This document shows positions 47,781 to 64,000 of a stretch of 64,000 bases of DNA, in pieces (position 1 is the first letter of the stretch; the number at the start of each line of letters is the position of its first letter). The notes under the pieces are model-generated. The model saw only the letters and a program-made list of their open reading frames with translations, did not search any database and was not told the DNA's origin. The stretch lies in the NCBI GenBank assembly GCA_046155245.1, contig JBJXDR010000113.1:4878-68877 (forward strand), given 5' to 3'. A program made the translations under genes and the position numbers. Origin of the DNA: Rhodoglobus sp. (GTDB lineage: Bacteria; Actinomycetota; Actinomycetes; Actinomycetales; Microbacteriaceae).

Positions 47781-48701
47781 GTGATCGTCATCGTCGCCCC
47801 TGGCCAGGGCTCCCAGGCCCCCGGATTCCTTGAGCCGTGGCTTGAGCTGGAGGGAGCCAGCGAACAGCTCGCTACCATCTCGGATGCCGTCGGCATCGAT
47901 CTTGCCGCCCACGGCACGACCTCAGACGCTGACACGATCCGCGACACGAAGATTGCGCAGCCGCTCATCGTCGCGGCCGGGCTCCTGACCCTCAGCTCGC
48001 TGTTTGCCGACGGCCGACGGGAGAAAGTGGGCGGCGTCGCGGGACATTCAGTGGGCGAGGTCACGGCGTCGGCCGCGGCGGGCATCCTGAGCGACACTGA
48101 TGCGGTGGCATTCGTGCGTGAGCGCGGGCGGGCGATGGCGGATGCCGCGGCCCTCGAGCCGACCGGCATGTCCGCGGTTCTGGGCGGCGACGAGGCGGCC
48201 CTACTCGAGCGTCTCGCCGAGTTGGACCTCTACCCAGCGAACTACAACGGCGGCGGGCAGCTCGTGGTTGCGGGCGCGCTACCCGCGCTCGAGCAGCTGG
48301 CGGAGAACCCCGTGGCGGGCACCCGGGTGATCCCGCTTCAGGTGGCTGGCGCGTTTCACACCCGGTACATGCGACCGGCCGTCGCGCACCTCGAAGCATT
48401 CGCGGCGACGCTGGAGACCCACGACCCAACACTGCCGATCTGGACCAACCGCGACGGCTCTGCCGTGACTTCGGGGGCCGAGTTCATGACGCTTCTCGTC
48501 GGTCAGGTGTCGTCGCCGGTACGGTGGGACCTGACGATGGAGGCCTTCGCGGCCTCCGGAGTCAGCGGAGTCATCGAACTCGCGCCCGCGGGCGCCCTCG
48601 TGGGTCTTGCGAAGCGCGGCCTCAAGGGCGTGCCGAGTGTGGCCGTGAAGACGCCGGATGACCTGCAGGCAGCGTTCGATTTGATCGATGGGAACTCATG
48701 A
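47781..48701 (+). CDS. fabD: Malonyl-CoA:ACP transacylase
   Basis: PGQGSQ, GHSVGE, GAFHT. Confidence 0.96.
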   Translation: MIVIVAPGQGSQAPGFLEPWLELEGASEQLATISDAVGIDLAAHGTTSDADTIRDTKIAQPLIVAAGLLTLSSLFADGRREKVGGVAGHSVGEVTASAAAGILSDTDAVAFVRERGRAMADAAALEPTGMSAVLGGDEAALLERLAELDLYPANYNGGGQLVVAGALPALEQLAENPVAGTRVIPLQVAGAFHTRYMRPAVAHLEAFAATLETHDPTLPIWTNRDGSAVTSGAEFMTLLVGQVSSPVRWDLTMEAFAASGVSGVIELAPAGALVGLAKRGLKGVPSVAVKTPDDLQAAFDLIDGNS

Positions 48702-49696
48702 TCACCCTCAAGCAGTCCCACGGCGCCGAGTTCACCCGCATCTACAGCTATGGTGCCGCGCGCGGTGACCGCGTCGTCGGCAACGACGAACTCGTGGCGG
48801 CCATCGACTCGAGTGATGAGTGGATCCAGCAGCGCACCGGCATCGTGACGCGCACCCGGGCATCCGCGGGGCTCGGCGCGGTCGATCTCGCGACCGAAGC
48901 AGCGACCGAGGCGATCGCCAAGTCGGGTGTCCCGCCCGAGAAGATCGACCTCGTGATCGTCGCGACCATCAGCAACGTGCAGCAGACGCCCTCCATCGCC
49001 GCGGTGGTGGCCGACCGAGTCGGCGCGAACCCCGCGGCAGCCTACGACGAGAACGCGGCGTGCGCGGGCTTCAGCTACGGCGTGACCCAGGCCGACGCGC
49101 TCATCCGCTCCGGGGCTGCGCACTACGCACTCGTGATCGGTGCCGAAAAGCTGTCCGACGTCGTCGACCCCACCGACCGCTCGATCTCGTTCCTGCTCGG
49201 TGACGGCGCGGGCGCGGTGGTGATCGGGCCGAGCGATTTCCCGGGAATCGCGGCCGCGGTCTGGGGCTCCGACGGCTCCAAAGCAGATGCAGTGGGCATG
49301 GATGGCACGCTCACCGAGTACCGCGACGGCAGCTCGCCCTGGCCGACCCTGCGCCAAGACGGGCAAGCCGTCTTCCGCTGGGCCGTGTGGGAGATGGCCA
49401 AGGTTGCGAAGCAGGCACTTGAGGTCGCTGGGGTGACGGCAGACGATCTGGCCGCCTTTATCCCGCATCAGGCGAACATGCGCATCATCGACGAGTTTGC
49501 CAAGCAGTTGAACCTGCCCGACACCGTGATGATCGCCCGTGACATCGCGACCACCGGCAACACGAGCGCTGCCTCAATCCCGCTGGCGACGCACCGGCTG
49601 CTCGCCGAGCATCCCGAACTGAGCGGCGGCCTCGCCCTCCAGATCGGTTTCGGTGCCGGGTTGGTCTTCGGTGCTCAAGTGGTCGTACTGCCGTAG
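48698..49696 (+). CDS. fabH: Beta-ketoacyl-ACP synthase III
   Basis: AACAGF, PHQANMRI, GNTSAAS, GFGAGL. Confidence 0.96.
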   Translation: MITLKQSHGAEFTRIYSYGAARGDRVVGNDELVAAIDSSDEWIQQRTGIVTRTRASAGLGAVDLATEAATEAIAKSGVPPEKIDLVIVATISNVQQTPSIAAVVADRVGANPAAAYDENAACAGFSYGVTQADALIRSGAAHYALVIGAEKLSDVVDPTDRSISFLLGDGAGAVVIGPSDFPGIAAAVWGSDGSKADAVGMDGTLTEYRDGSSPWPTLRQDGQAVFRWAVWEMAKVAKQALEVAGVTADDLAAFIPHQANMRIIDEFAKQLNLPDTVMIARDIATTGNTSAASIPLATHRLLAEHPELSGGLALQIGFGAGLVFGAQVVVLP

Positions 49697-49746
49697 CCCC
49701 CCTAAACTTGCACACGGTCATATCAACCCCTCAAGGAGAGCACACA

Positions 49747-49995
49747 ATGGCATTGTCCACAGAAGAAGTCCTGGCCGGCCTGGCCGAGCTCATCAACGAC
49801 GAAACCGGCATCGCGACGGACACGGTCGAGCTGGACAAGTCGTTCACGGACGACCTAGACATCGACTCCATCTCGATGATGACCATCGTCGTCAACGCAG
49901 AAGAGAAGTTCGACGTGAAGATCCCGGACGAAGAGGTCAAGAACCTCAAGACCGTCGGCGACGCCGTCAGCTTCATCACCAGCGCACAGGCCTAA
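49747..49995 (+). CDS. acpP: Acyl carrier protein
   Basis: DLDIDSISM phosphopantetheine site; AAGGAG RBS. Confidence 0.96.
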   Translation: MALSTEEVLAGLAELINDETGIATDTVELDKSFTDDLDIDSISMMTIVVNAEEKFDVKIPDEEVKNLKTVGDAVSFITSAQA

Positions 49996-50067
49996 CACCC
50001 TAGGTTCGCGGCCGGCCCAAGGTCGGTCGGCCGCGGAGTGTGTTCCCTCTCACAACAGGACGTTGAC

Positions 50068-51306
50068 ATGACCCCGAAGAAGATTGTCGTCACCGGCATC
50101 GGCGCCACCTCACCGCTGGGCGGTACCGCACTCAAATCCTGGGCGGCCCTCCTGGCCGGGGAGTCTGGCGCGCACACGCTCGAGCACGACTGGGTCACCA
50201 AGTACGACCTCCCCGTGACCTTCGCCGCCGAGGCAAAGGTACGCCCGGAAGACGTGCTCGATCGAGTCGAGTACAAGCGCCTCGACCCGTCGAGCCAGTT
50301 CGCACTGATCTCAGCGCGGGAAGCATGGGCGGACGCCGGCACTCCCGACGTGGATCCGACCCGGGTCGGAGTCGACTACTCGACGGGTATCGGCGGCCTC
50401 TGGACGCTCATCGATGCGTGGGACACCCTGCGCGAGCGCGGAGCCCGACGGGTGCTCCCCATGACCATCCCGATGCTCATGCCCAACGCGGCCGCCGCCG
50501 CGATCAGCATGTCCCTTGCGGCTCGGGCCTTCGCCCGCACGGATGTCTCGGCTTGCGCGTCAAGCACAGAGGCGATCGCCAACGCCTACGACCACCTGCA
50601 GGCTGGGCTCGCCGATATCGTTCTAGCAGGCGGAACCGAGGCGGTCGTGCATCCGCTGCCGATCGCGTCATTCGCGGCCATGCAGGCCCTCTCGAAGCGT
50701 AACGACTCGCCGTCGACGGCCTCACGCCCCTACGACAGCACTCGTGACGGCTTCGTGCTCGGAGAGGGCGCTGGAACCATCGTGCTCGAGACCGAGGAGC
50801 ACGCACTCGCCCGCGGGGCGCGCATCTACGCCGAGCTCGCCAGTGGTTCCGTGACGAGCGATTCGTACCACATCACCGCGCCAGATCCTGAGGGCTCCGC
50901 GGCCGCTCGAGCGATGCTCGCGGCGATCGCTCAGGCGGGCGCGACGCCGACCGACGTGGCACACATCAATGCCCACGCGACCAGCACACCGGTCGGCGAC
51001 ATCGCCGAGTACAACGCGATGTTGCGAGTCTTTGGGGATCACCTGCCGAACATCGCCGTCTCGGCTACGAAGGCCTCCACGGGCCATCTGCTGGGCGGCA
51101 CGGGCGCTCTCGAGGCGATCTTCACCATCCTTGCCCTGCACAACCGCACGGCGCCGCCGACAATCAATCTCACGGAGCAGGATCCGGAGATCCCTCTGGA
51201 CGTCGTGACGTCTCCGCGCACGCTCCCAGAGGGGCCGTTGCTAGCGCTGAGCAACTCGTTCGGCTTCGGCGGCCACAACTCCGTCGTGGCGTTCCGCAGC
51301 TACTGA
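50068..51306 (+). CDS. fabF: Beta-ketoacyl-ACP synthase II
   Basis: SACASS, NAHATSTP, GHLLGG, NSFGFGGHN. Confidence 0.96.
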   Translation: MTPKKIVVTGIGATSPLGGTALKSWAALLAGESGAHTLEHDWVTKYDLPVTFAAEAKVRPEDVLDRVEYKRLDPSSQFALISAREAWADAGTPDVDPTRVGVDYSTGIGGLWTLIDAWDTLRERGARRVLPMTIPMLMPNAAAAAISMSLAARAFARTDVSACASSTEAIANAYDHLQAGLADIVLAGGTEAVVHPLPIASFAAMQALSKRNDSPSTASRPYDSTRDGFVLGEGAGTIVLETEEHALARGARIYAELASGSVTSDSYHITAPDPEGSAAARAMLAAIAQAGATPTDVAHINAHATSTPVGDIAEYNAMLRVFGDHLPNIAVSATKASTGHLLGGTGALEAIFTILALHNRTAPPTINLTEQDPEIPLDVVTSPRTLPEGPLLALSNSFGFGGHNSVVAFRSY

Positions 51307-51494
51307 ACCGGTAAGCAGCCTGGGTGCACGTAGCACTCGCCGTCGAACTTCAGCAGGTCGTCCTCGGTGACGAGTCGCTCAAGTTGGGCGAGATCGAGCA
51401 GCGGCGGCGCAATCTGGTCGACGAGTTCGTCGAGTTCCCTGTTCAGCGTGTCCATAATTACCCTTCGTTGATCGACCGTGAGCCGGGCGACGAG

Positions 51495-52013
51495 TCACCC
51501 GACCTTGTGAAGCCAGACCACTGCCGAGTCCTGCCCCGCGTGGCGGAAGACCTCAAGCTCGTCGTCCCACGCCTGACCCAGCGCGAGCCGCAACTCTCGG
51601 TGCAACTCGATCGCATTGGCGCCCGCGAGTTCCATCGCGTAACGCACGCGATCCTCGGGGATGACGACGTTGCCCACGGTGTCAGTCTGCGCGTAGAAGA
51701 TCCCGAGGTCCGGGGTGTGCATCCATCGGCCGCCGTCGGTGCCGAGCCCGGCATCCTCGGTCACCTCGAAGCGCAGGTGCTCCCAGCCGCGCAACGCTGA
51801 AGCGAGCTTGGCACCGGTGCCACGCTCGCCCTCCCAGTAGAACTCGGCTCGCTGCGAGCCCTTGAGCACGGGCTGCTGTTCCCACGCGAAATTGACCGCA
51901 CGGTCGAGGGCTCGACCCGCGGCCCATTCGATGTGCGGGCACAACGCACGAGGAGCGGAGTGCACATAGAGCACTCCGCGAGCAGTTGGTGCAGTCACAT
52001 GCAGTGCAGACAC
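51495..52013 (-). CDS. DUF3145 family protein
   Basis: GVLYVHSAPRALCPHIEWA, LRFEVTE, WDDELE.FR. Confidence 0.88.
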   Translation of the reverse strand: MSALHVTAPTARGVLYVHSAPRALCPHIEWAAGRALDRAVNFAWEQQPVLKGSQRAEFYWEGERGTGAKLASALRGWEHLRFEVTEDAGLGTDGGRWMHTPDLGIFYAQTDTVGNVVIPEDRVRYAMELAGANAIELHRELRLALGQAWDDELEVFRHAGQDSAVVWLHKVG

Positions 52014-52166: not shown

Positions 52167-53807
52167 TCATTTTGCGTCGCCATAGTTGTCGACCACGGCG
52201 ATAGTCACCGGAAACTCGGCCGGTAGGGCTCCGAAGAGCAGCTGTCCGGCCTCAATGGCGGCCAGCCGCACCTGCTCAGTGACGGCATCGGAGAGCTCGG
52301 CGGGGCAGTGCACGACGACCTCGTCATGGAGGAAGAACACGAGGTGCGGGGCATCCGTGAGCCAGGTGCCATCGGCCATCGCGTGCAGGCGACGGCGGAT
52401 GCTCGCCATCCAGCACAGCGCCCATTCGGCCGCGGTGCCCTGCACGATGAAGTTGCGAGTAAATCGGCCCCACGCACGCGCACGGCCGCGTGCGCGAACG
52501 ACCTCGGACTCCGACGCGATCTCGTCGTACCCAGCGCCCTGACCCCGCGGCGAACTGCGACCAAGGCGGGTGGTCACCACCTCGCCGCGTTCGCCTGCAC
52601 GCGCCGCTTCCTCGACCATCGCAATCGCCTTGGGATACGCGCGTTCGAGACGCGGCATGAGCCTGCCGCTCTCGCCGGTCGTCGCGCCGTACATCGCGCC
52701 GAGCATCGCGACCTTCGCCTGATCCCGCGTCTCGACCGCGCCACTGGCCACGATGCCCGCGTAAAGATCGCCCTCGGCCCCGGCCTGCACCATCCCCCGA
52801 TCACCTGAGATAGCAGCAAGGATGCGCGGTTCGAGTTGCGAGGCATCCGCGACTACGAGCTTCCACCCCGGGTCAGCGATCACGGCGCTGCGGATCTGCC
52901 GGGGCAGTTGCAACGCTCCCCCGCCGCTCGCCGCCCACCGCCCGGTCACGACACCGCCGGGCAGATAGCCGGGACGGAAGCGGCCGTCGCTCACCCAAGT
53001 ATCGAGCCACGTCCAGCCGTTTGCCGACAGCAGCCGGGCGAGCTTCTTGTACTCGAGCAGGGGTGCGATCGCCGGGTGCTTCAGTTGCTTGAGCTCCCAC
53101 GAGCGGGTCGAGGTCACCTGGAGACCCACCCGGCCGAGGGCACGCAAGAGGTCGCCCGGCGAGTCGGGGTTCAAGTCGGGCGCTTCGAGGAGTTCGCGCA
53201 CCCGCTCGAGCAACGCCGTGAGCACCGCGGGACGCTCGCCCTCTGGCGGCCGGGGACCGAGCAGTTCGGCAAGGATCTCCTCGTGGCGGGCCGTATCCCA
53301 CGGCAGCCCGGCGTACTCAAGTTCCGAGGCAATCAGCGCACCAGCGGATTCCGCTGCGAGCAGACGGTCGATCCGCCCAGGCTGAGCGGATGCGGCAACC
53401 GCCTCCCGCTGCGCCATGAGCTCCGCGACGGGGTCGGCATTCACAGACGCATCATCGGCGTCGAGGTCGAAGAGGGCGCCGCTGGGCGGACGCTCCTGAC
53501 CCCGCGGCGAATCCCACGAACTCTTCGGGGCCGTCGCGAGCGGGGAACCAGCAGTCAGTTCCGAGTTGCGCAGGATCGCGTGGCACAGCCGCAGGTCGTA
53601 GCACCGGTCGACGCGCACCCGCGCGGCGAGCAGCTGCGGATACCAGTGGGACGTGTCATCCCACACCCAGCGTGGCGTCGAACGCTCCTCGGCTGCGACG
53701 AACGACGGCAGATCCTTGACGTACTCGATTCCGAACGACGCGCTCTCGTCGGTGCGGCGGGCCGCCATGACGCGGTCCCCGGCAACCCTGGCGAGAACGA
53801 TGAGCAT
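52167..53807 (-). CDS. Family A DNA polymerase-like protein (3'-5' exo/polymerase, no 5' nuclease)
   Basis: Motif A DASQLEPRIL, motif B RDQAKVAMLGAMYG, motif C FFLHDEVV. Confidence 0.9.
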   Translation of the reverse strand: MLIVLARVAGDRVMAARRTDESASFGIEYVKDLPSFVAAEERSTPRWVWDDTSHWYPQLLAARVRVDRCYDLRLCHAILRNSELTAGSPLATAPKSSWDSPRGQERPPSGALFDLDADDASVNADPVAELMAQREAVAASAQPGRIDRLLAAESAGALIASELEYAGLPWDTARHEEILAELLGPRPPEGERPAVLTALLERVRELLEAPDLNPDSPGDLLRALGRVGLQVTSTRSWELKQLKHPAIAPLLEYKKLARLLSANGWTWLDTWVSDGRFRPGYLPGGVVTGRWAASGGGALQLPRQIRSAVIADPGWKLVVADASQLEPRILAAISGDRGMVQAGAEGDLYAGIVASGAVETRDQAKVAMLGAMYGATTGESGRLMPRLERAYPKAIAMVEEAARAGERGEVVTTRLGRSSPRGQGAGYDEIASESEVVRARGRARAWGRFTRNFIVQGTAAEWALCWMASIRRRLHAMADGTWLTDAPHLVFFLHDEVVVHCPAELSDAVTEQVRLAAIEAGQLLFGALPAEFPVTIAVVDNYGDAK

Positions 53808-53811
53808 GGTC

Positions 53812-54633
53812 TCAGCCGTGCAGCAGTGTGCCGTCCTTGGCGAGGACGTTCTTCTCTCCGGCCTCGATGCGCACCCCGAACCGGTTCTGCTTGGGCGGCA
53901 GCGGGCAGTTGAAGTTGTAGCTGAAAGCGCACGGCGGAAGAATGGCGCGGTTGAAGTCGAGGGTGATCGTGCCGTCGGGATTCGGCGCCACGAACAGGAA
54001 GCGACCCACGCTGTAGGTGTCGTCTCCGTTGGTCGCGTCAGCGAAGACGAGCTGGAGGGCACGGCCGGCCTTGAAGGCAGCGAGGTTGTAGTCGACACCG
54101 TGCTTGGTGAACGTGATCTCCCCGGGGATGACCTCCTCGCGCGTTTGACCGTCGTCTTTGAGGTGCTCGAACCCGAGGGTGGTGCCGGCCGCGTTCTCGC
54201 TGAACTTCGCGGTGATGACCCACTCGGGGTTGTAGCCGTACGCGTCGATGCCGCCGAACTGCCGGATGCCCTGCGAGTTCGAGTCCCACACCCGCAGGGC
54301 GTAGGTGCCCTCGGAGGCGATGACGAAGCCGGTGACGGTGTCGCTGAACACGATGGTGCTCGGGTTCGGGTCATCCTTGCCGCGCACCACCACGGTGCCG
54401 TCAACGAGCTGGCCGTCGACGACGATCGCGTCGGATGCCTCGGCCGTGAGCATGAGCCCGCCGCCCGGGTTAGGCGCCCATCGCCCAGGAACACCGTAGA
54501 TCGTCTGCTCGGAGTCCACCCACTGGGTGTTCACGAGGGCCAGGCTGCCGAGCGGCTGCACGACGCTCAGTTCGCGCCGCTCGTGATAGGTGGCGAGCTG
54601 GCTCTCGGGCGTTTCGGTGGCGGTGTCGGTCAT
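53812..54633 (-). CDS. DUF1684 family protein
   Basis: LVFADATNG..TY..GRFL, LDFNRA..PPCAFS..FNCPLPP.QN; start may be as far up as 54657. Confidence 0.9.
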   Translation of the reverse strand: MTDTATETPESQLATYHERRELSVVQPLGSLALVNTQWVDSEQTIYGVPGRWAPNPGGGLMLTAEASDAIVVDGQLVDGTVVVRGKDDPNPSTIVFSDTVTGFVIASEGTYALRVWDSNSQGIRQFGGIDAYGYNPEWVITAKFSENAAGTTLGFEHLKDDGQTREEVIPGEITFTKHGVDYNLAAFKAGRALQLVFADATNGDDTYSVGRFLFVAPNPDGTITLDFNRAILPPCAFSYNFNCPLPPKQNRFGVRIEAGEKNVLAKDGTLLHG

Positions 54634-54725
54634 GGGTTCCATCCTCGTGTGATCCACCGACTAAACCGGCGACGACACGGGTTTATGCCGCGCCGCCACC
54701 GGCAGTCGATCCACGGAGACCTAGC

Positions 54726-57278: not shown

Positions 57279-57357
57279 GTATAGAAGATATCTTCGAATG
57301 GTGCTCCCTGTGAATAGCCCGGCGCATCCCGAGTAACACTCGACATAGGCTGTGGCT

Positions 57358-60300
57358 ATGTCGAGCCAATGGACCGAGACCGCCGCCCAGTACGTCACGA
57401 GCACAACTTCGTGCCCGCGCTGTGACACCACTCTCGCCCAACCCGGACGATGCAGCGAGTGCGGCGCGGATCTGGCAAGTGCCCAGGCCAAGGAGGTGTG
57501 GAACTCGTCGCTCGCCGTTGCTGCTGCCCTCCGCCAACGGCAGACGCTCATCGATGGGCTGCCGAACTTCGCCGACGCAGCGGTCGCGAGCACGGTGCCG
57601 GCGCCGACCGCAGCACCGGCGGTCGCAGCCGCCGTCAGCCCGGCAGTCGCAGCAGCGGCCGCTACCGCCGGTGTCCCGGCGCTGGCGCAGCCAGTCGCGC
57701 GACGCACCAGCTCGCAGCTGAGCGTGCAGTCGGTGCTCGCGGTGGCCGGTGCCGGCCTGTTCGCTGTGGCGGCCATCGTCTTCACGTTCTTCAACCCCGA
57801 CCTCACCGATCTGGCAACGCGGTCGGCGATCATCGCTGGCATCAGCGCCGTCTTCATCGGCGGGGCGTGGCTGCTTTCCTGGCGTGGACTCACGTTCTCC
57901 GCCGAGGCGGTTGGCGCCCTCGGTGCGGTGTTCCTCGGGCTCGACGTGTGGGCCTTCTCGCAGGCGGCGCCCGACGGCGTGAGCGAGTGGTTGTTCGGCG
58001 GCATAGGGATGCTCGTGGCCGCGGCATCCCTGCTCGCACTCGCTGCGCTCGTGCGGCTGCGCACGTGGCTCTGGGCCGCGTTGGTGGGTATCGCGCTGAC
58101 CCCCGCACCGTTCGCCTACGCCGTGGATTCCGCGTGGGCCCCCGTGGTGGGGCACCTCGCGGTGGGCTTCGCCGCGCTCGGCGTTCATCTGATCGCACGG
58201 CGGTTCTCCAGTCGTTTCGCGAGCCCGCTCGCGGCCGACCACGGCACGGCGACCGTGATCACCCTGCTCGTGCTCGCCGTCGTTCCCCTGCAGCTCGTGC
58301 TGCTGCCGGTCGCGGGGTCGCCCGTCCGGGTCGGCCTCAGTTCTGCGGTGCTGGCTGCACTCGCCCTGATCGCTTGGCTCGCCGCGCGGGAGCAGCTGCG
58401 GCGGTTCTGGTTGTTCGCGTCGGGGGCGCTGATCACAACCGCGGTCGCGCTTCTGCCGCTCGTTGCCGACCTGTATGACTGGACTTGGTACCTCGCGTAC
58501 GTGCCGGCGGCCGCCGCAGTCGCCCTCATCGGGATAGCGCTCATCCGTCGGCCGCCCTTCCAGGCGGGCGCCCTCACGATCGCCCTGATCGTGTCGACAC
58601 CTGCGGCCGGAACCGCGGCGAGCCGGCTGGCGGCAATGCTCCTCGGCGGTGGTGAGTTCACCGGCAACGCGACCACCGAGCTTGCTGCGCTGTTCGGGCT
58701 TGCTGCGACCGCTCTCGCCTGCGGATTCCTCGCGTGGCGCACCCGAGGCGTGCGCACTCTCGCGCTCGCTCTGTGGATTGCGTGCCTCGCACTGCTCGCT
58801 CTCACCGTCTGGTCGGCGCTCGCTCTGCCCGCTCAGATCGTCGCGACCCTCGCGCTGGCCGTCGTTCTCAGCGCCGTGGTCGTGCGGGTGCCGATGCCGG
58901 TCGTCGCCCGCGTGCCGCTCATCGTGACGGCTCATGTCGGTGTGCTCATGGCCGCCGTGATCTCGTGGAGCGATCCGGCCAGCCGCGTGCTCGCCGGGGC
59001 GGCTGCGGTCGCCGCACTGTTCGCCGTCGCTCGCACGGTGCCCCTGAAGGTGCGGCCGGTGCACGTCGGTGTTGGCTACGCCTATGCACTCGTGATCGTT
59101 GCGGCGGCCTTCGATCTCGCCGGATTCGAGACGATCACAGTGCTTTGCCTCACCACGACCGTCGGCTCGCTCGCGGCCCTCGTGGTCACTCTGGTCGGCC
59201 GTTTCGGGCCGGGGACGTGGTACGCAGTTCTGATCGTCACTGCTGTGCCCTTCGCGATCGGCATCGTGTCGGTGCTGCTCGATCGCAGCGGCTGGACCGC
59301 TCTGTCGACCGGTGTCACCTTCGCGCTGCTTCTAGCGATCATGCTCACCCGCCGCCCCGGCCTGACGCTGGTCATCAGGGCCGGTGCGGCAGCGTTGCTC
59401 GTGCCCGCCCTCGCCGTCGTCGTGATCAGTCTGGGCGCGCAGGTGCTTTCTGTCAGCGCATCCCCCATCACGCTGCCGGTCATTGCCGTGATCGTCGCGT
59501 GCACCCTGCCCGCGACGGGCCTGATCGCGGCGGCAGTCGCCGCACAGGGCGTCTCCGAGGCGGATGCCGCGGTCGTGCGGGTCTGGATCGAGATCTCCTC
59601 GCTCGTCACCGGTGCGATCGCGGTGGTGCTCGCGCTGGTGCGGTCGGCAGCTGGCATCCCGACCACGTTCCTCGTGCTGGTGATTCTCGGGATCGGCGCC
59701 ATCGCGACGGCGGTCTTCGCGAAACGCCGTTACGGGTGGCCGGTTGCGGGCATCGCCTTCACCGGCGCGCTGTGGTGCGTGTGGTGGCTCGCCGGTATCA
59801 CTGTGCTCGAGCCGTACCTGTTGCCGCCAGCGCTCGGCACGGCTCTGGTCGCCGCGATTCTTGTCGCCCGCGATCGTCCCGGCATGGGGCTGTCCGCGCT
59901 CGGCCTCTACTGGACTGGGCTCGGAGTGGCGGCCGTACCCACCCTCGTTCTCCTCGCCCTCTCCGGATCCGACCAGGCGAGCCTGCCGTGGCGTTCGCTC
60001 GGGCTGCTCGGCTCCGCACTCGTGCTCATGGTCTTCGCCGCGCTCATCCCGCGCTTCGTGAAGGTCGGCGCCCTACGGCGAATCGGCCCGCTGCGCACCC
60101 CCACCCTCGTGGTGGCTATCGGTGCGGCATCCGCTGGGGCAATTCAGGGCATCCGCTACGGGCTCGGGCTCGACGCCGTGGCGGTCGCCAGCCGCGAACT
60201 CGTGATGCTGCCGGTGCTCGGATTCGCCGTCGCGGCGACAGTTCTCGCCGTGATCGCGGCCCGGATGCTCGGCTCGCGATCACGCTGGAGCTACGTGCCC

Positions 60301-60996
60301 GCCACGGTCTACCTCGTGGCGGGGCCGATCGCGGCGATCCGGGAGGGCTGGTTCCCGATCCTCACGGTGCTCGCTCTGGCCCTGCTGCTGCTCGCGCTCA
60401 TGATCGTGTCCACGGTGCGCGCGCGCTCCCGCGCCGTGACGCTGCCGCCGGTCTGGTTGACGTTCGCTCTCGCCTGGTGCACGGCCGTCGCCAGCTGGAG
60501 CCAGCGCGAGCTGCGGGTCGAGGCCTACTCGCTGCCTCTTGGGCTCGCACTGCTGGCCGTGGGCATCATCGCGATGCGTCCGCTGCCCGCTCAGACGGCG
60601 GATGCGGGCCCGACGCTCACCTCCTGGCCGATCGGTTTCAGCGGCTCCTGGCGCCTGCTCACGCCCGGCATCGTGGTCACACTGCTGCCGTCGATTCTCG
60701 CGACGGGAACCGATCCGCGCACCGAGCGCGCCATCCTCGTGATCGCGCTCGCCCTGATCGCCATCCTCATCGGCTCGATCCGTCGGTTGGCGGCCCCGTT
60801 CATCCTCGGCATCATCGCTCTGCCGATCGAGAATATCGTTGTGTTCGCCGTGCAGATCGGTCGCAACATCGGTGCGCTGCCGTGGTGGATCACCCTTGCG
60901 ACGGCGGGCGCCGTGCTGCTGGTGATCGCCGTCGGGTCGGAGCGCCGCACCGGCAAGGACAAGGGCACTGCGGCGCGGCTGCGGGATCTGCGGTAG
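57358..60996 (+). CDS. Large polytopic membrane protein (SCO7613-like C-terminus)
   Basis: N-terminal CPRC...CSEC, many TM helices, VEAYSLP and LPWWITLATAG motifs. Confidence 0.8.
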   Translation: MSSQWTETAAQYVTSTTSCPRCDTTLAQPGRCSECGADLASAQAKEVWNSSLAVAAALRQRQTLIDGLPNFADAAVASTVPAPTAAPAVAAAVSPAVAAAAATAGVPALAQPVARRTSSQLSVQSVLAVAGAGLFAVAAIVFTFFNPDLTDLATRSAIIAGISAVFIGGAWLLSWRGLTFSAEAVGALGAVFLGLDVWAFSQAAPDGVSEWLFGGIGMLVAAASLLALAALVRLRTWLWAALVGIALTPAPFAYAVDSAWAPVVGHLAVGFAALGVHLIARRFSSRFASPLAADHGTATVITLLVLAVVPLQLVLLPVAGSPVRVGLSSAVLAALALIAWLAAREQLRRFWLFASGALITTAVALLPLVADLYDWTWYLAYVPAAAAVALIGIALIRRPPFQAGALTIALIVSTPAAGTAASRLAAMLLGGGEFTGNATTELAALFGLAATALACGFLAWRTRGVRTLALALWIACLALLALTVWSALALPAQIVATLALAVVLSAVVVRVPMPVVARVPLIVTAHVGVLMAAVISWSDPASRVLAGAAAVAALFAVARTVPLKVRPVHVGVGYAYALVIVAAAFDLAGFETITVLCLTTTVGSLAALVVTLVGRFGPGTWYAVLIVTAVPFAIGIVSVLLDRSGWTALSTGVTFALLLAIMLTRRPGLTLVIRAGAAALLVPALAVVVISLGAQVLSVSASPITLPVIAVIVACTLPATGLIAAAVAAQGVSEADAAVVRVWIEISSLVTGAIAVVLALVRSAAGIPTTFLVLVILGIGAIATAVFAKRRYGWPVAGIAFTGALWCVWWLAGITVLEPYLLPPALGTALVAAILVARDRPGMGLSALGLYWTGLGVAAVPTLVLLALSGSDQASLPWRSLGLLGSALVLMVFAALIPRFVKVGALRRIGPLRTPTLVVAIGAASAGAIQGIRYGLGLDAVAVASRELVMLPVLGFAVAATVLAVIAARMLGSRSRWSYVPATVYLVAGPIAAIREGWFPILTVLALALLLLALMIVSTVRARSRAVTLPPVWLTFALAWCTAVASWSQRELRVEAYSLPLGLALLAVGIIAMRPLPAQTADAGPTLTSWPIGFSGSWRLLTPGIVVTLLPSILATGTDPRTERAILVIALALIAILIGSIRRLAAPFILGIIALPIENIVVFAVQIGRNIGALPWWITLATAGAVLLVIAVGSERRTGKDKGTAARLRDLR

Positions 60997-61001
60997 GCAC
61001 G

Positions 61002-61676
61002 TCAGAGCGCGGTGTAGACGACGACCTGTGACCCTGCCAGAGCACCCCACGCCAGCACGCTGAGCGTCAGAGTCGTGAGGATCGTGTGGGCGCGCTCGGC
61101 GATGATCAGCCGGCCCTTCACTCGCGCGAGTCGCGCGTCGTACCAGTAGGCGGAGGCGAGCAGCAGGAGCGCGATCGTCAGAACCCTGACGAGCAGGGGC
61201 GGATCGCCCCCGACGACGATCGCTCCCACCTGGTAGAACGCGATCACGCCCCACGGAACGATCGCCACCGCCGCACCGAAGGAGAACGGCCACGTCGACT
61301 CCGCCGCCCGTTCGTGCAGCACGAGGAAGAGACTCGAGCCTGCAGTGATCGCGTAAAGCGCGACGAGTGCCGCGGCATCCGTGACCCCGTTGAGTTGTGC
61401 CACGAGGAACACCACTACGCCCGACACCTGCGACCACTCCACCCAGCGGATGACCGGGCTCGGGCGCACCGCGTCGATGGCACGGCACAGCGCCGAGAAC
61501 ACGAGGAGCGTCACTGCGGCGCCTCCCAGGTTGACGGCTGTGAGCTGGATGCCGCCGCCGAAGTCGGCCGAGACCGGCAGTAGCACGGGGGCGGTGCCGC
61601 TGAGCAGGATGCCGACGGTGATGGCTTGGGCGGCGAGGAGGGCTGCCGCCACGATGTTCAGCGTGCGAGGGTTCAC
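61002..61676 (-). CDS. Heliorhodopsin-like 7TM protein lacking the retinal-binding Lys
   Basis: RWVEWS...LVAQLNG..D..AL, PF.FG....IVPW and ERA...L....LSVLAW match the heliorhodopsin pattern; GTG start with GGAG. Confidence 0.8.
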   Translation of the reverse strand: MNPRTLNIVAAALLAAQAITVGILLSGTAPVLLPVSADFGGGIQLTAVNLGGAAVTLLVFSALCRAIDAVRPSPVIRWVEWSQVSGVVVFLVAQLNGVTDAAALVALYAITAGSSLFLVLHERAAESTWPFSFGAAVAIVPWGVIAFYQVGAIVVGGDPPLLVRVLTIALLLLASAYWYDARLARVKGRLIIAERAHTILTTLTLSVLAWGALAGSQVVVYTAL

Positions 61677-61685
61677 AACTCCACA

Positions 61686-61721
61686 GTAGGGCGGACGGGA
61701 CTTGAACCCGTGACCGACGGA
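61686..61721 (-). other. att site: 3' half of a tRNA (probably Ile2/Met CAT type)
   Basis: TCCGTCGGTCACGGGTTCAAGTCCCGTCCGCCCTAC = anticodon 3' stem, T-arm and acceptor 3' strand; no 5' half present. Confidence 0.8.
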
Positions 61722-61843
61722 GTGTGCGCCCTTCACCACAACCCACACTCGCATGAACCGGTCCCCCGTCGACAGAAGCCGACGGTCCCCCCACGATCAC
61801 CTCAGAGGTAGATGTCTGTGAAGCCGCCCCGGGGCTCAGAGGC

Positions 61844-62230
61844 TTACGCCACTTCCCCATCGATCGGGTCGAATTCCCAAGTGCCGGGACGGGCGGCGCG
61901 CCCAGTGGCGTGGTCGATACGCAGGCCGGTCCTGATGGCCCCGCTCCTACGCCCGTCCGCGTTGAAAACAATCCGATTCGGCACCCCACACGCTGTCGCG
62001 AACTCGTGAACGTCAAAGTTGGGATCGGCGTGCAGGAGCACCTGAGCCATCACCCACATGACGTTTGTCCTCACGTTGTCGGTTTCTCGGCTGTCCAGGG
62101 GGTCGGCGATCTGCTTGCCCCTGTCCTGTGCCCACTGGTGTCCGGCACGATCCAACCTCCACGGGGAGTCGGACCAGTCATGCCCGCGCACTTCATCCGC
62201 GAGCTCCTGCGCAAAACGGCTCAACGCCAT
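61844..62230 (-). CDS. Hypothetical protein
   Basis: ATG with GAGAGG RBS; 128 aa; no family recognised. Confidence 0.7.
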   Translation of the reverse strand: MALSRFAQELADEVRGHDWSDSPWRLDRAGHQWAQDRGKQIADPLDSRETDNVRTNVMWVMAQVLLHADPNFDVHEFATACGVPNRIVFNADGRRSGAIRTGLRIDHATGRAARPGTWEFDPIDGEVA

Positions 62231-62464
62231 GATCGTTCCTCTCATAGAACTTCCACTTCCCACCGGATAGGGAATGAACGCCGTCTCCCCATGTTGGAGA
62301 CCGCTCATCTATTGTACGTCGCGCACCCCTTTGCGTCGAGGAGCGGGGCCGTTACCTTCCGCAGGGGGTTTGGCCCGCTCAGGTAGCAGTCACGTTTCAC
62401 CGAGCGGGTTGGAACCGCTTATTCCGGCACCGGGGCCGGCGCGGCGCGTGTGAGTTCTGGCGAC

Positions 62465-63340
62465 TCAAGCGATCCAGCGAGCCTGTCCACCCTTGATGAT
62501 CTGGAGGTCGGGGACCGACAACCCGTCTGAGTACACCGCGTACTCAGCACCAACGTGCTGGGTCTGAGCGGTGTGCGAGATGTCGAACGCCGCGCATCGA
62601 AGCCCTTCGTAGAGATCAGCCGTGATGCGCTCGTCGGCGTCGTAGGTCATGAACCACCGAAGGTCCGTGCGCCGAAGTTGGTCGGCCAGCTCCCGATGGT
62701 CCTTCAGGCTGAGAGAGTCGAGGTACAGGTGCTCTCCCTGCACGAGATATGGCGGGTCCACATACACGAGCACATCATGTCCGTACGTCTGCATGTCATC
62801 GAGGAAGACGCGGGCGTCAAGTTCCGTCAGACGTACCCGGTTGCGAAAGGCACCTAGATAACGAATCTTGTCAGCGAGGTCGTCCCGGTTGAACCGGGCG
62901 TCGATCTTCCAGTTTCCAGTTTGGTTGAGTCCCCCGATAGGACCGGCGTTCAAGATGCCTGACCGGTTGCATCGGTTGAGGAAGAAGGTTGCGAAACCGA
63001 GTTCTAGATCGTCGTGGCCCTCCGGGTTCATGTAGATGGCCTTCGCCTCATGCCAGGCATCCATGGTGATGGGATGGCCCAGGAGGAGCTTCGTGAAGGC
63101 GTCCGTCTGTGTGAACATCGCGCGCCAGAATGCAGCGATGCCGGGGCTCAGGTCGTTGATGTGAGCGGTGCGGACTTCCTCGTTCACCAGCAGACGGAGA
63201 GCGGCCCCCGCCCCCCCGGCGAACGGCTCGGCGTATTGTCGTGGGCGTGGCGCTTGTGCCGCCACCAGCCGAGCCAGGTAGTCGGATAGCCGACTCTTCC
63301 CGCCTGGGTAGCGGAGTGGGCTCAGGGATTTGAATCTCAC
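62465..63340 (-). CDS. DNA adenine methyltransferase (Dam/D12 class)
   Basis: PLRYPGGKS, EPFAGGAG, FFLNR, YVDPPY; GTGA overlap with the upstream gene. Confidence 0.93.
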   Translation of the reverse strand: MRFKSLSPLRYPGGKSRLSDYLARLVAAQAPRPRQYAEPFAGGAGAALRLLVNEEVRTAHINDLSPGIAAFWRAMFTQTDAFTKLLLGHPITMDAWHEAKAIYMNPEGHDDLELGFATFFLNRCNRSGILNAGPIGGLNQTGNWKIDARFNRDDLADKIRYLGAFRNRVRLTELDARVFLDDMQTYGHDVLVYVDPPYLVQGEHLYLDSLSLKDHRELADQLRRTDLRWFMTYDADERITADLYEGLRCAAFDISHTAQTQHVGAEYAVYSDGLSVPDLQIIKGGQARWIA

Positions 63341-63999
63341 GTTACGGGGTTCTCTCCTGCGTAGTCGTCCAAGCGCTGCAGGAACGGTTTGAATGCCGAT
63401 GATAGCGCGCGCACGTTGGCCGGACCGGGATCCGCTAGGTAGCTGTGCACATAGGCGTTCATCTGATCGACGCCGAGACCACTGCCGCTCGCGTCCGCCT
63501 GGCTGTTTATCCACGCCATCGCGAGGGCCCGGTCTCGGTCGACTGTGTGCTCGATGTTCGGATCAAGCTTCTTGAGGGCGATCTTGAATTTGGACCTGAG
63601 TTTTGCGCCGTCCTCAAACCATCCTCGCTCGACTCCCACCTCGGTCACGGCCATCTCAAGGATCACGCGAAGCATCACAGCGCAGACCCCCGGTGCGGTG
63701 TCTATCTTGACTTTCTGAGCATCGACAAGGAGCGAGCTCGTGCGAAGGCTTACGTGCCGAAGAGTCACCGTCTGGTAGATCTTTGTGTCCGGACGCGGTG
63801 TTCTTCGTCCACCTCGACCTCCCGTGGCCGTGCCGCCGGAGGTGGTTCCTCCTCCTGATGTACCGCCGCCTGATCCGCCGCTAGGCCCTCCGCCGGTTCC
63901 TCCGGTGCCACCCCCACCGGACTGACCACCACCGGGCTGGCTACCGCCGGGCTGCCCGGCCGGGAACCGCTCCCGTGCCAAGGCAACCACGTCATTGAT
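63337..63999 (-). CDS. Methylase-coupled protein, C-terminal part: Gly-rich linker + possible HEPN-like domain (5' truncated)
   Basis: Frame open to the window edge; MLRVILE and MNAYVH motifs. Confidence 0.6.
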   Translation of the reverse strand: MNDVVALARERFPAGQPGGSQPGGGQSGGGGTGGTGGGPSGGSGGGTSGGGTTSGGTATGGRGGRRTPRPDTKIYQTVTLRHVSLRTSSLLVDAQKVKIDTAPGVCAVMLRVILEMAVTEVGVERGWFEDGAKLRSKFKIALKKLDPNIEHTVDRDRALAMAWINSQADASGSGLGVDQMNAYVHSYLADPGPANVRALSSAFKPFLQRLDDYAGENPVT

Positions 64000-64000
64000 G

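What the first reader, a model, noticed from the sequence alone, without database searches (positions are those of the whole stretch)
61002..61676. Heliorhodopsin homologue without the Schiff-base lysine or either conserved histidine
Seen: TM3 RWVEWS, LVAQLNG..D..AL, PFSFG...IVPW and TM7 ERAHTILTTLTLSVLAW. Known (heliorhodopsin 48C12 sequence recalled from memory): RWVEYS, LIAQICG.AD..AL, PFWFG...IVPW and ERAYIVLSLVAKSALAW, with K241 binding retinal, E107 as counterion, and H23/H80 important for the photocycle. Aligned by eye, K241 is Leu (CTC at 61062-61064, not one step from a Lys codon), H23 is Leu, H80 is Arg, and E107 is kept. The ORF is intact with host-like codons, and no retinal biosynthesis genes occur in the window. 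Inference: a light-independent 7TM sensor or scaffold derived from heliorhodopsin, which could hint at the still-unclear non-photochemical role of the family.
Basis: partly seen in the sequence, partly recalled or inferred. Interest (0 to 1): 0.8.

Follow-up and report, generated by a model that had tools for sequence, protein, structure and literature searches.

The report
Lysine-less heliorhodopsin relative in Microbacteriaceae
This intact, selected gene encodes a membrane protein with the heliorhodopsin light-sensor fold that cannot attach retinal, and it belongs to a large, single-origin, apparently undescribed pigment-less branch whose lysine-bearing sister group offers a natural comparison for working out what heliorhodopsins do.

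Summary
Window 61002-61676 (-) encodes a 224-aa protein that matches Pfam Heliorhodopsin (E 1e-13) and 48C12 (PDB, E 2e-12). Its AlphaFold model (pLDDT 88.7) superposes on 48C12 (TM 0.85).

Key positions, in 48C12 numbering:
- K241 is Leu (CTC, 61062-61064), H23 is Leu and H80 is Arg.
- E107, R104 and W105 are kept.
- The only Lys lies in a cytoplasmic loop.

It is not an isolated mutant. About 60 clusters at 50% identity lack the lysine, nearly all from Microbacteriaceae. In a careful tree they form one clade (100/94). That clade is sister to a lysine-bearing heliorhodopsin subfamily that shares a conserved polar cluster in the extracellular half (N123, Y135, R196, T199).

The gene is under purifying selection (dN/dS 0.23-0.27), though more relaxed than its neighbours (0.02-0.11). 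The same genome also has a canonical heliorhodopsin and a type-1 rhodopsin.

In 301 family genomes, 17 of the 24 carriers lack a canonical heliorhodopsin, but 19 of 24 have a type-1 rhodopsin (odds ratio 17).

Best reading: a protein that cannot form a Schiff base with retinal, in which Arg at position 80 probably replaces the Schiff-base charge opposite E107. Its cellular role is unknown. I found no publication describing it; one heliorhodopsin survey filtered such sequences out.

The parts
61002..61676 (-). CDS of the Lys-less heliorhodopsin-like protein (224 aa, GTG start, stop at 61002-61004)
   Evidence: ORF list and sequence. Pfam PF18761 at 51.6 bits. The called protein is identical to P0001, 224 aa. 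AF2 predicts 7 TM helices plus an A-B beta-hairpin, pLDDT 88.7.
61062..61064 (-). CTC, Leu205, at the position of the Schiff-base lysine K241 of 48C12
   Evidence: HMMER and MAFFT alignments; codon coordinates. The clade has V, T, A or L here.
61482..61484 (-). CGT, Arg65, at the position of H80. I propose it replaces the Schiff-base positive charge opposite Glu80 (E107).
   Evidence: Alignment and codon. Arg at 80 occurs with E107 in 143 Lys-less sequences. It occurs in 3 of 29 Lys-less sequences without E107 and in none of 45 Lys-bearing ones.
61437..61439 (-). GAG, Glu80, the retained counterion E107 within RWVEWS
61635..61637 (-). CTC, Leu14, at the position of H23
61684..61721 (-). 38-nt copy of the 3' end of tRNA-Met, ending 7 bp before the GTG start codon. 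It is the attachment-site scar of an element integrated just upstream.
   Evidence: 100% match to the 3' end of the complete tRNA-Met gene on contig C136:291-365. ARAGORN finds no tRNA here.
61800..64000 (.). Low-GC (about 60% against about 70%) foreign island upstream of the gene. It includes a D12-class adenine methyltransferase (62465-63514, -).
   Evidence: Composition profile. Pfam PF02086. Upstream DNA is not homologous to relatives right up to the start codon.
57352..60996 (+). Convergent neighbour: a 1214-aa polytopic membrane protein with an SCO7613 C-terminal domain. Its stop codon lies 5 bp from the stop of the heliorhodopsin-like gene.
   Evidence: NCBIfam NF047321 at 159 bits. The pairing is conserved in L004, L005 and L007.

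Best explanation
**Shown**
- The gene encodes an intact heliorhodopsin-fold 7-TM protein under purifying selection.
- It lacks the Schiff-base lysine and any substitute lysine, so it cannot bind retinal covalently.
- It belongs to a clade that lost the lysine once. That clade arose from a lysine-bearing actinobacterial heliorhodopsin subfamily, here called 'RT-type'. The subfamily is marked by N123, Y135, G174, R196 and T199 in the extracellular halves of helices C to F.
- The family occurs mostly without a canonical heliorhodopsin in the same genome.

**Inferred**
- The protein keeps the heliorhodopsin topology (N-terminus inside) and probably the dimer. The dimer-contact residues D127 and Y179 are kept.
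- Arg at position 80 replaces the protonated Schiff base as the partner of Glu107, fixing the cytoplasmic cavity in one state.
- The working part is the polar cluster in the extracellular half (N96, Y108, Q149, R164, T167 in this protein). This is the most conserved feature of the whole clade and was inherited from lysine-bearing ancestors.
- The protein therefore performs constitutively, or in response to a non-light signal, whatever output the RT-type heliorhodopsins perform under light. Most likely this is binding or regulating a membrane or envelope partner, or a small hydrophobic ligand.
For: - **Family and fold.**
- **Residue states.**. There is a single loop Lys and no conserved TM Lys.
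- **Clade size.** 88 of 98 close homologues lack K. About 60 Lys-less clusters appear among the representatives. 70 loci were found, almost all in Microbacteriaceae.
- **Single origin.** The careful tree gives Lys-less monophyly at 100/94, and RT-type K-bearing plus Lys-less at 100/99.
- **Shared extracellular cluster.**
- **Selection.** dN/dS is 0.23-0.27 at dS 0.20-0.26.
- **Arg80 and Glu107.** Co-occurrence is 143/28/3/26, naive Fisher p 1e-14. Arg80 is never seen in K-bearing sequences.
- **Topology.** K+R count is 7 on predicted cytoplasmic loops and 0 outside.
- **Independence from canonical heliorhodopsin.** 17 of 24 carrier genomes have none.
- **Vertical inheritance.** The gene sits in a conserved chromosomal slot, between a GT4 glycosyltransferase and DUF1684 / PolA-like / fabF, across genera.
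Against:
- dN/dS is 2-3 times that of neighbouring genes.
- Distribution is patchy: 24 of 301 family genomes, and 1 of 5 in the same genus.
- A few copies are disrupted (L009, L070, G126).
- The native upstream region is replaced by an island ending 7 bp from the start codon, so expression in this strain is uncertain.
- The Arg80-Glu107 link did not reach significance in a phylogenetically independent test, which had only 3 usable pairs.
- No partner gene is consistently adjacent across subgroups.
- The strong co-occurrence with type-1 rhodopsins may mean the function is still tied to retinal or light.
Confidence: 0.6

Rival explanations
1. The protein is still a light-related accessory. It binds retinal, a carotenoid or another hydrophobic pigment non-covalently in the remodelled pocket. 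It then works with the cell's type-1 rhodopsin, for example as chromophore carrier or chaperone, antenna holder or regulator.
For: - Carriers are enriched for type-1 rhodopsin: 19/24 against 50/277 genomes, odds ratio 17. At genus level it is 11/13 against 16/88.
- Summed side-chain volume at 22 pocket positions is unchanged (3234 against 3233 A3 for 48C12) or lower across the clade (3099 against 3206). The space retinal would occupy is therefore not filled.
- Pocket residues W105, F162 and W173 are kept, and the new ones (L145, A206, W210) are themselves conserved.
Against: - There is no lysine, and H23, H80, S111, N138, M141, I142, F206 and Q213 are all replaced.
- Five carrier genomes have no rhodopsin at all.
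- The gene is never adjacent to the type-1 rhodopsin gene; the two lie 70 kb or more apart where both are on one contig.
- The co-occurrence may only reflect a shared sunlit or cold-water habitat and shared ancestry.
Confidence: 0.2
2. The protein is a dark partner that forms heterodimers with the canonical heliorhodopsin of the same cell and modulates it.
For: - Heliorhodopsins are dimers (10.1101/767665).
- The dimer-contact residues D127 and Y179 are mostly kept.
- This genome has a canonical heliorhodopsin.
Against: - 17 of 24 carrier genomes have no canonical heliorhodopsin.
- The association is weak (odds ratio 2.8, p 0.06).
- The two genes are on different contigs.
Confidence: 0.07
3. 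The gene is a slowly decaying relic of a heliorhodopsin paralogue with no remaining function in this strain.
For: - Constraint is relaxed relative to neighbours: 0.23-0.27 against 0.02-0.11.
- Presence is patchy even within the genus.
- Disrupted copies occur elsewhere.
- The promoter region is displaced by an island.
Against: - dN/dS is far below 1.
- The ORF is intact in every one of more than 30 variants at 87-93% identity.
- The clade is deep and diverse, with invariant motifs.
- Codon usage matches the host.
Confidence: 0.05

Closest known systems
Canonical heliorhodopsins (HeR 48C12, PDB 6su3/6uh3; TaHeR 6is6; Pfam PF18761)
   Same: - Significant sequence homology.
- Same 7-TM fold with an A-B beta-hairpin (TM 0.85).
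- R104, W105, E107, E149, E230, P172 and W173 are kept, as are the dimer residues D127 and Y179.
- The positive-inside pattern fits the inverted topology.
   Different: - No Schiff-base lysine.
- H23 is Leu and H80 is Arg.
- Pocket positions S111, N138, M141, I142, G145, F206, A210 and Q213 are all changed.
- The A-B and B-C loops are shorter.
- It scores below the NCBIfam HeR equivalog cut-off (54.8 against 100 bits).
- A conserved polar cluster sits in the extracellular half, which is described as fully hydrophobic in 48C12 (10.1101/767665).
Lysine-bearing 'RT-type' heliorhodopsin subfamily (P0091, P0129; loci L045, L048, L054, L056, L068; my own label)
   Same: - Sister clade in the tree (100/99).
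- Shares F117, Q121, N123, Y135, L145, G174, R196, T199 and L203.
- Found in the same bacterial family.
   Different: - Keeps K241, H23, H80 and F206.
- Sits at a different chromosomal locus.
- Presumably binds retinal.
Type-1 opsins without the lysine: Rh-noK, haloarchaeal opsins lacking the retinal site (Becker 2016), freshwater FArhodopsins (as reviewed in PMC10308929)
   Same: Paralogues of retinal proteins that lost the Schiff-base lysine, are retained by selection, and often coexist with a functional rhodopsin in the same genome.
   Different: They belong to a different rhodopsin family (type 1) with the opposite membrane orientation. Rh-noK lies in tandem with its pump, whereas this gene is not next to any rhodopsin.
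Gluopsins (animal opsins without the retinal lysine; PMC9368030)
   Same: The lysine that defines the family is absent, and such sequences are routinely discarded from surveys.
   Different: They are animal GPCRs and are not homologous at the sequence level.
Lys-less heliorhodopsins of Saccharibacteria noted earlier in this scan (e.g. e1-2743298, e1-2124510)
   Same: They have the heliorhodopsin fold without the lysine and are under selection.
   Different: They belong to a different phylum and, according to those notes, arose by many independent losses, often also losing E107 or taking Arg at K241. Here there is a single loss, E107 is kept, Arg sits at position 80, and the residue at 241 is hydrophobic. 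Those notes were not checked here.

Membership tests
Heliorhodopsin (Pfam PF18761 / type-3 rhodopsins) | Significant match to the family profile | tested here: met
   PF18761 scores 51.6 bits against a cut-off of 26.7, E 1.1e-13, but covers only profile positions 92-240.
Heliorhodopsin (NCBIfam NF038020 equivalog 'HeR') | Score above the equivalog cut-off (same function as characterised members) | tested here: not met
   54.8 bits against a cut-off of 100.
Heliorhodopsin | 7-TM fold with a long A-B beta-hairpin, closest to solved heliorhodopsin structures | tested here: met
   AF2 gives pLDDT 88.7, pTM 0.86, seven helices and two strands. The ten best Foldseek hits are all heliorhodopsins, TM 0.81-0.86; type-1 rhodopsins have E values of 4e-3 or worse.
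Heliorhodopsin | Schiff-base lysine in helix G (K241) | tested here: not met
   Leu205 (CTC, 61062-61064). There is no other TM lysine.
Heliorhodopsin | Counterion glutamate in helix C (E107) | tested here: met
   Glu80 within RWVEWS.
Heliorhodopsin | His23 and His80 lining the Schiff-base cavity | tested here: not met
   Leu14 and Arg65. Across the clade the residues are L (126/180) and R.
Heliorhodopsin | Inverted topology (N-terminus cytoplasmic) | tested here: inconclusive
   The K+R census gives 7 on loops that would be cytoplasmic and 0 on the others. This is consistent with the inverted topology but is only a sequence rule.
Heliorhodopsin | Binds all-trans retinal and shows a photocycle | not testable with these tools
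   This needs expression with retinal and spectroscopy.
Rh-noK / lysine-less type-1 opsins | Homology to type-1 rhodopsins (PF01036) | tested here: not met
   There is no PF01036 hit. Type-1 structures are only distant fold matches. This is an analogue, not a member.

The most novel reading that the evidence does not exclude
The RT-type heliorhodopsins and their Lys-less descendants may share an output function. It would be seated in the conserved polar cluster of the extracellular half (N123, Y135, Q180, R196, T199), a region that is purely hydrophobic in 48C12. In the lysine-bearing members light would gate this site. In the Lys-less clade the site works without light, with Arg80 paired to Glu107 mimicking one photostate. 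If so, this natural pair of sister clades in culturable Microbacteriaceae would be a direct handle on the long-unresolved question of what heliorhodopsins do. It could also reveal a new ligand-binding or transport activity of the rhodopsin fold.
Probability: 0.25. Interest if true: 0.8.

Novelty: new variant of a known kind. Interest (0 to 1): 0.62.

Why it matters
The cellular function of heliorhodopsins is still disputed. Proposals include glutamine synthetase, photolyase and ABC-transporter regulation, proton transport in viral forms, and carotenoid antennae.

This clade bears on that question in several ways:
- A large, single-origin, selected clade has discarded the chromophore but kept the fold. 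It also kept the counterion and a conserved polar site on the extracellular side. So part of the family's function does not need a covalently bound retinal.
- Its lysine-bearing sister group and several cultured carriers make the question testable. Carriers include Frigoribacterium, Salinibacterium, Microcella alkalica, Microbacterium schleiferi and Agromyces tardus.
- At least one published survey required the lysine and so removed exactly these sequences (10.1101/2021.02.16.431466). In the literature I could search, this branch is undescribed.
- Lysine-less opsins are already known in the type-1 and type-2 families. This supplies the type-3 counterpart in Actinomycetota.

Tried and rejected
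- **Longer ORF (ATG at 61754).** Rejected. It overlaps a tRNA-Met fragment, and homologues start at the GTG or ATG equivalent.
- **Another lysine in the pocket.** Rejected. The single Lys is in the F-G loop, and no TM Lys is conserved in the clade.
- **'Pocket filled by bulky residues'.** Not supported. G145L and A210W are offset by M141S, I142S, F206A and Q213A, so the net side-chain volume is unchanged.
- **Retinal synthesis.** PF15461 and TIGR03753 found no Blh in the 95%-complete assembly. For PF15461 the control genomes were also silent, so absence is not proven.
- **Arg80/Glu107 coupling by independent pairs.** Underpowered.
- **Operon partner.** Neighbours differ between subgroups:
  - SCO7613-like protein in this subgroup;
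  - GNAT-AAA protein in some Salinibacterium;
  - ABC transporter plus TagF-like and PMT-like genes in the Frigoribacterium group;
  - HNH and antitoxin genes in Microbacterium.

  No consistent partner emerged, only a loose cell-envelope theme.
- **Promoter scan.** It found a sigma-70-like site only upstream of the island's last ORF (62339-62311, -), and no terminator.
- **Literature.** Four full-text searches found no description of lysine-less heliorhodopsins.

Full report
**1. The observation**

The minus-strand ORF ending at 61002 is intact. The credible start is the GTG at 61676, giving 224 aa. This is the length of the called protein P0001 and of more than 30 homologues at 87-93% identity. 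The longer ATG ORF to 61754 would read through a 38-nt copy of the 3' end of tRNA-Met.

Homology evidence:
- Pfam Heliorhodopsin: 51.6 bits, E 1.1e-13, covering profile positions 92-240.
- NCBIfam HeR equivalog: 54.8 bits, below its cut-off of 100.
- 48C12 in the PDB: E 2.1e-12.

I recovered the 48C12 sequence (residues 7-257) from tool alignments and aligned it with the window protein. This confirmed every residue claim:
- K241 is Leu205 (CTC, 61062-61064).
- H23 is Leu14.
- H80 is Arg65.
- E107 is Glu80. R104, W105, E149, E230, P172 and W173 are also kept.

The protein has a single lysine (K187), in the cytoplasmic F-G loop. GC3 is 0.85, like its neighbours.

**2. Fold**

An AlphaFold2 model built on a 24-sequence alignment has pLDDT 88.7 and pTM 0.86. 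It shows seven helices and a two-stranded hairpin between helices A and B. The ten best Foldseek matches in the PDB are all heliorhodopsins (48C12 TM 0.85-0.86; TaHeR 0.81-0.83). Type-1 rhodopsins follow with E values about five orders of magnitude weaker. Lys plus Arg number 7 on the loops that are cytoplasmic in heliorhodopsin topology and 0 on the others. This fits the inverted orientation.

**3. It is one member of a large Lys-less clade**

- Of 98 homologues found by the word-indexed search, 88 lack the lysine. They carry V 59, T 16, A 8 or L 3 at that position.
- A profile search of 1.84 billion cluster representatives gave 706 hits at E <= 1e-3. Roughly the 60 best-scoring full-length clusters lack the lysine, and canonical heliorhodopsins follow at lower scores.
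- A scan of one genome per species returned 70 loci. Almost all are from Microbacteriaceae: Rhodoglobus, Salinibacterium, Leifsonia, Cryobacterium, Frigoribacterium, Glaciihabitans, Microcella, Microbacterium, Agromyces, Herbiconiux, Subtercola and others. Several are cultured strains.

**4. Origin**

- In a careful IQ-TREE analysis of 88 sequences (LG+C20 PMSF), the 41 Lys-less representatives form one clade (UFBoot/SH-aLRT 100/94).
- Their sister (100/99 for the union) is a small lysine-bearing group: P0091, P0129, L045, L054 and L068.
- Both sit next to actinobacterial canonical heliorhodopsins, including the one from this genome.
- The lysine-bearing sister, which I call RT-type, already carries F117, Q121, N123, Y135, L145, G174, R196, T199 and L203. 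It keeps K241, H23, H80 and F206.
- The lysine was therefore lost once in this lineage. The loss came with H23L, H80R, F206A, G/A210W and V180Q.
- A few further Lys-less sequences are scattered among canonical clades (P0185, P0215, P0220, P0230, P0241). These are separate events.

**5. What is conserved**

I looked across 104 Lys-less sequences thinned to under 70% identity. The best-conserved positions lie in the extracellular halves of helices C to F:
- F117, L118, A120, Q121, N123, G124
- L131, Y135, A136
- V171, P172, W173, G174, A177, Q180
- R196, T199, L203

Kovalev et al. describe this half of 48C12 as completely hydrophobic (10.1101/767665). In the window's own subgroup the cytoplasmic-cavity residues R104, W105, E107, E149 and E230 are also kept.

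Arg at position 80 is a hallmark of the clade:
- It accompanies E107 in 143 Lys-less sequences.
- It is present in only 3 of 29 Lys-less sequences that lost E107.
- It is absent from all 45 lysine-bearing sequences (naive Fisher p 1e-14).

This suggests that Arg80 supplies the positive charge formerly given by the protonated Schiff base. A test on phylogenetically independent pairs had only three usable pairs and is uninformative. This step is therefore inference.

The summed side-chain volume of 22 pocket-lining positions is unchanged. It is 3234 A3 against 3233 for 48C12, and the clade mean is 3099 against 3206 for lysine-bearing sequences. The former retinal space is remodelled, not filled. 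I could not compute a cavity because model coordinates are not exposed.

**6. Selection**

| Gene | Genomes compared | dN/dS |
|---|---|---|
| Heliorhodopsin-like gene | window, L004, L005 (dS 0.20-0.26) | 0.23-0.27 |
| SCO7613-like neighbour | same genomes | 0.11 |
| DUF1684 neighbour | same genomes | 0.06-0.08 |
| Small membrane protein | same genomes | 0.02 |

More distant pairs of the heliorhodopsin-like gene give 0.21-0.40. The gene is clearly under purifying selection but evolves two to three times faster than its neighbours.

Disrupted copies exist:
- an in-frame stop in Salinibacterium xinjiangense (L009);
- a frameshift in one Microbacterium schleiferi strain (L070), while two other strains are intact;
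- a TGA in G126.

**7. Genomic context**

The gene sits in a conserved core region. In Microcella-type genomes the order is def, a DMT-like permease, a GT4 glycosyltransferase, this gene, DUF1684, a PolA-like protein, PadR, DUF3145, fabF and acpP.

The window shows the same backbone:
- fabF at 50038-51306;
- an ORF at 51324-51800 in the DUF3145 position. It had no Pfam hit; the DUF3145 label comes from my reading of the syntenic family;
- PolA-like at 52167-54494;
- DUF1684 at 53812-54657. Searches cover these four genes;
- a CoA-transferase and the SCO7613-like membrane protein inserted between this backbone and the gene.

Other subgroups have other neighbours (see Tried and rejected). No consistent partner emerges.

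Upstream of the gene the DNA differs between the window, L004 and L005 right up to the start codon. tRNA-Met, or fragments of it, lie 0.9-5.8 kb upstream in relatives. In the window a 38-nt tRNA-Met 3' copy ends 7 bp before the GTG, and a 60%-GC island with a D12 methyltransferase follows. The promoter in this strain is therefore uncertain. The only sigma-70-like site lies upstream of the island's last ORF, with no terminator in between.

**8. Co-occurrence**

The window's genome (2.47 Mb, 95% complete) also encodes two other rhodopsins:
- a canonical heliorhodopsin with K, H23 and H80 (308 bits, contig C102);
- a type-1 rhodopsin with its lysine (contig C95).

No Blh-type retinal-forming enzyme was found.

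In 301 Microbacteriaceae genomes the Lys-less family is present in 24, from 13 genera.

| Comparison | Carriers | Non-carriers | Odds ratio | p |
|---|---|---|---|---|
| Canonical heliorhodopsin present (genomes) | 7/24 | 36/277 | 2.8 | 0.06 |
| Type-1 rhodopsin present (genomes) | 19/24 | 50/277 | 17 | 1e-9 |
| Type-1 rhodopsin present (genera) | 11/13 | 16/88 | 25 | 4e-6 |

So 17 of 24 carriers lack a canonical heliorhodopsin, which argues against an obligate heterodimer with it. The enrichment for type-1 rhodopsin is not corrected for phylogeny and may reflect habitat. Even so, it cautions against calling the protein unrelated to light biology.

**9. Literature**

- Lysine-less type-1 opsins (Rh-noK, haloarchaeal opsins, freshwater FArhodopsins) are known (PMC10308929).
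- Lysine-less animal opsins, the gluopsins, are also known (PMC9368030).
- For heliorhodopsins I found no description. [quoted passage not shown]
- The structural classification of Kovalev et al. does not mention such members in the passages I searched.
- Earlier notes of this scan report Lys-less heliorhodopsins in Saccharibacteria. That is a different phylum with, per those notes, many independent losses. I did not check them.

**10. Verdict**

It is a homologue of heliorhodopsins by sequence and fold. It fails the defining chemical features (lysine and both histidines), so it should not be filed as a heliorhodopsin in the functional sense.

- The best-supported reading is a protein with no retinal Schiff base that kept the scaffold. 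It also kept the polar site on the extracellular side, inherited from a lysine-bearing subfamily.
- The charge-replacement role of Arg65, and any regulator, scaffold or ligand-binding role, are inferences.
- I rate it a new variant of a known kind, of solid interest to rhodopsin biologists.

Noticed in passing
window 61684-61721 (-), with contig C136:291-365 of the same assembly: A 38-nt exact copy of the 3' end of tRNA-Met ends 7 bp before the start codon. The complete tRNA-Met gene is on another contig. This marks an integrative element inserted into tRNA-Met. tRNA-Met or its fragments also lie upstream of the gene in relatives (L004, L005, L007, L010), so this is a recurrent integration hot spot.
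   Followed up: partly
window 61800-64000: An island of about 60% GC (the genome is about 70%) carries a D12-class N6-adenine methyltransferase (62465-63514, -). It also carries a 154-aa ORF (61844-62308, -) and a Gly-rich protein with no Pfam match (63337-63990, -).
   Followed up: partly
window 57352-60996 (+): A 1214-aa polytopic membrane protein has an N-terminal Cys-rich zinc-ribbon-like motif and an SCO7613 C-terminal domain (NF047321, 159 bits). It is convergent with the heliorhodopsin-like gene, with stop codons 5 bp apart. The pairing is conserved in L004, L005 and L007.
   Followed up: partly
own genome: C102:4426-5163 (L001) and C95:13816-14499 (L003): The same genome has a canonical heliorhodopsin (K, H23 and H80 present) and a type-1 rhodopsin with its lysine. 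Neither PF15461 nor TIGR03753 finds a Blh-type retinal-forming enzyme. The source of retinal is unclear: another enzyme, uptake, or a gap in the assembly.
   Followed up: partly
L045, L048, L054, L056, L068; proteins P0091, P0129: A lysine-bearing heliorhodopsin subfamily has an unusual conserved polar cluster in the extracellular half (N123, Y135, R196, T199) and Leu at G145. It is sister to the Lys-less clade. I know of no characterisation of this subfamily.
   Followed up: partly
proteins P0185, P0215, P0220, P0230, P0241: Isolated members of otherwise canonical heliorhodopsin clades carry A, N, Y, E or I at the lysine position. These are separate, independent losses outside the main Lys-less clade.
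   Followed up: no
L014, L015, L017-L021 (Frigoribacterium, Glaciihabitans, Lacisediminihabitans): In this Lys-less subgroup the gene is flanked upstream by an ABC ATPase and an ABC-2 permease. Downstream lie large TagF-like (CDP-glycerol glycerophosphotransferase-like) genes and a PMT-like membrane glycosyltransferase. These labels are by my reading of the sequences and were not run against Pfam. The arrangement recalls the reported heliorhodopsin-ABC transporter link.
   Followed up: no
window 47781-51800 and 52167-54657: A fatty-acid synthesis cluster (acyltransferase, KAS III, a 95-aa ORF in the acpP position, KAS II) is followed by an ORF in the DUF3145 position. The 775-aa PolA-like ORF (52167-54494, -) overlaps the DUF1684 gene (53812-54657, -), so its real start must lie further downstream.
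   Followed up: no
L009, L070, G126:C7:93379-94125: Disrupted copies of the Lys-less gene occur in single strains. Salinibacterium xinjiangense has an in-frame stop, Microbacterium schleiferi FXH-192 has a frameshift while two other strains are intact, and G126 has a TGA.
   Followed up: partly
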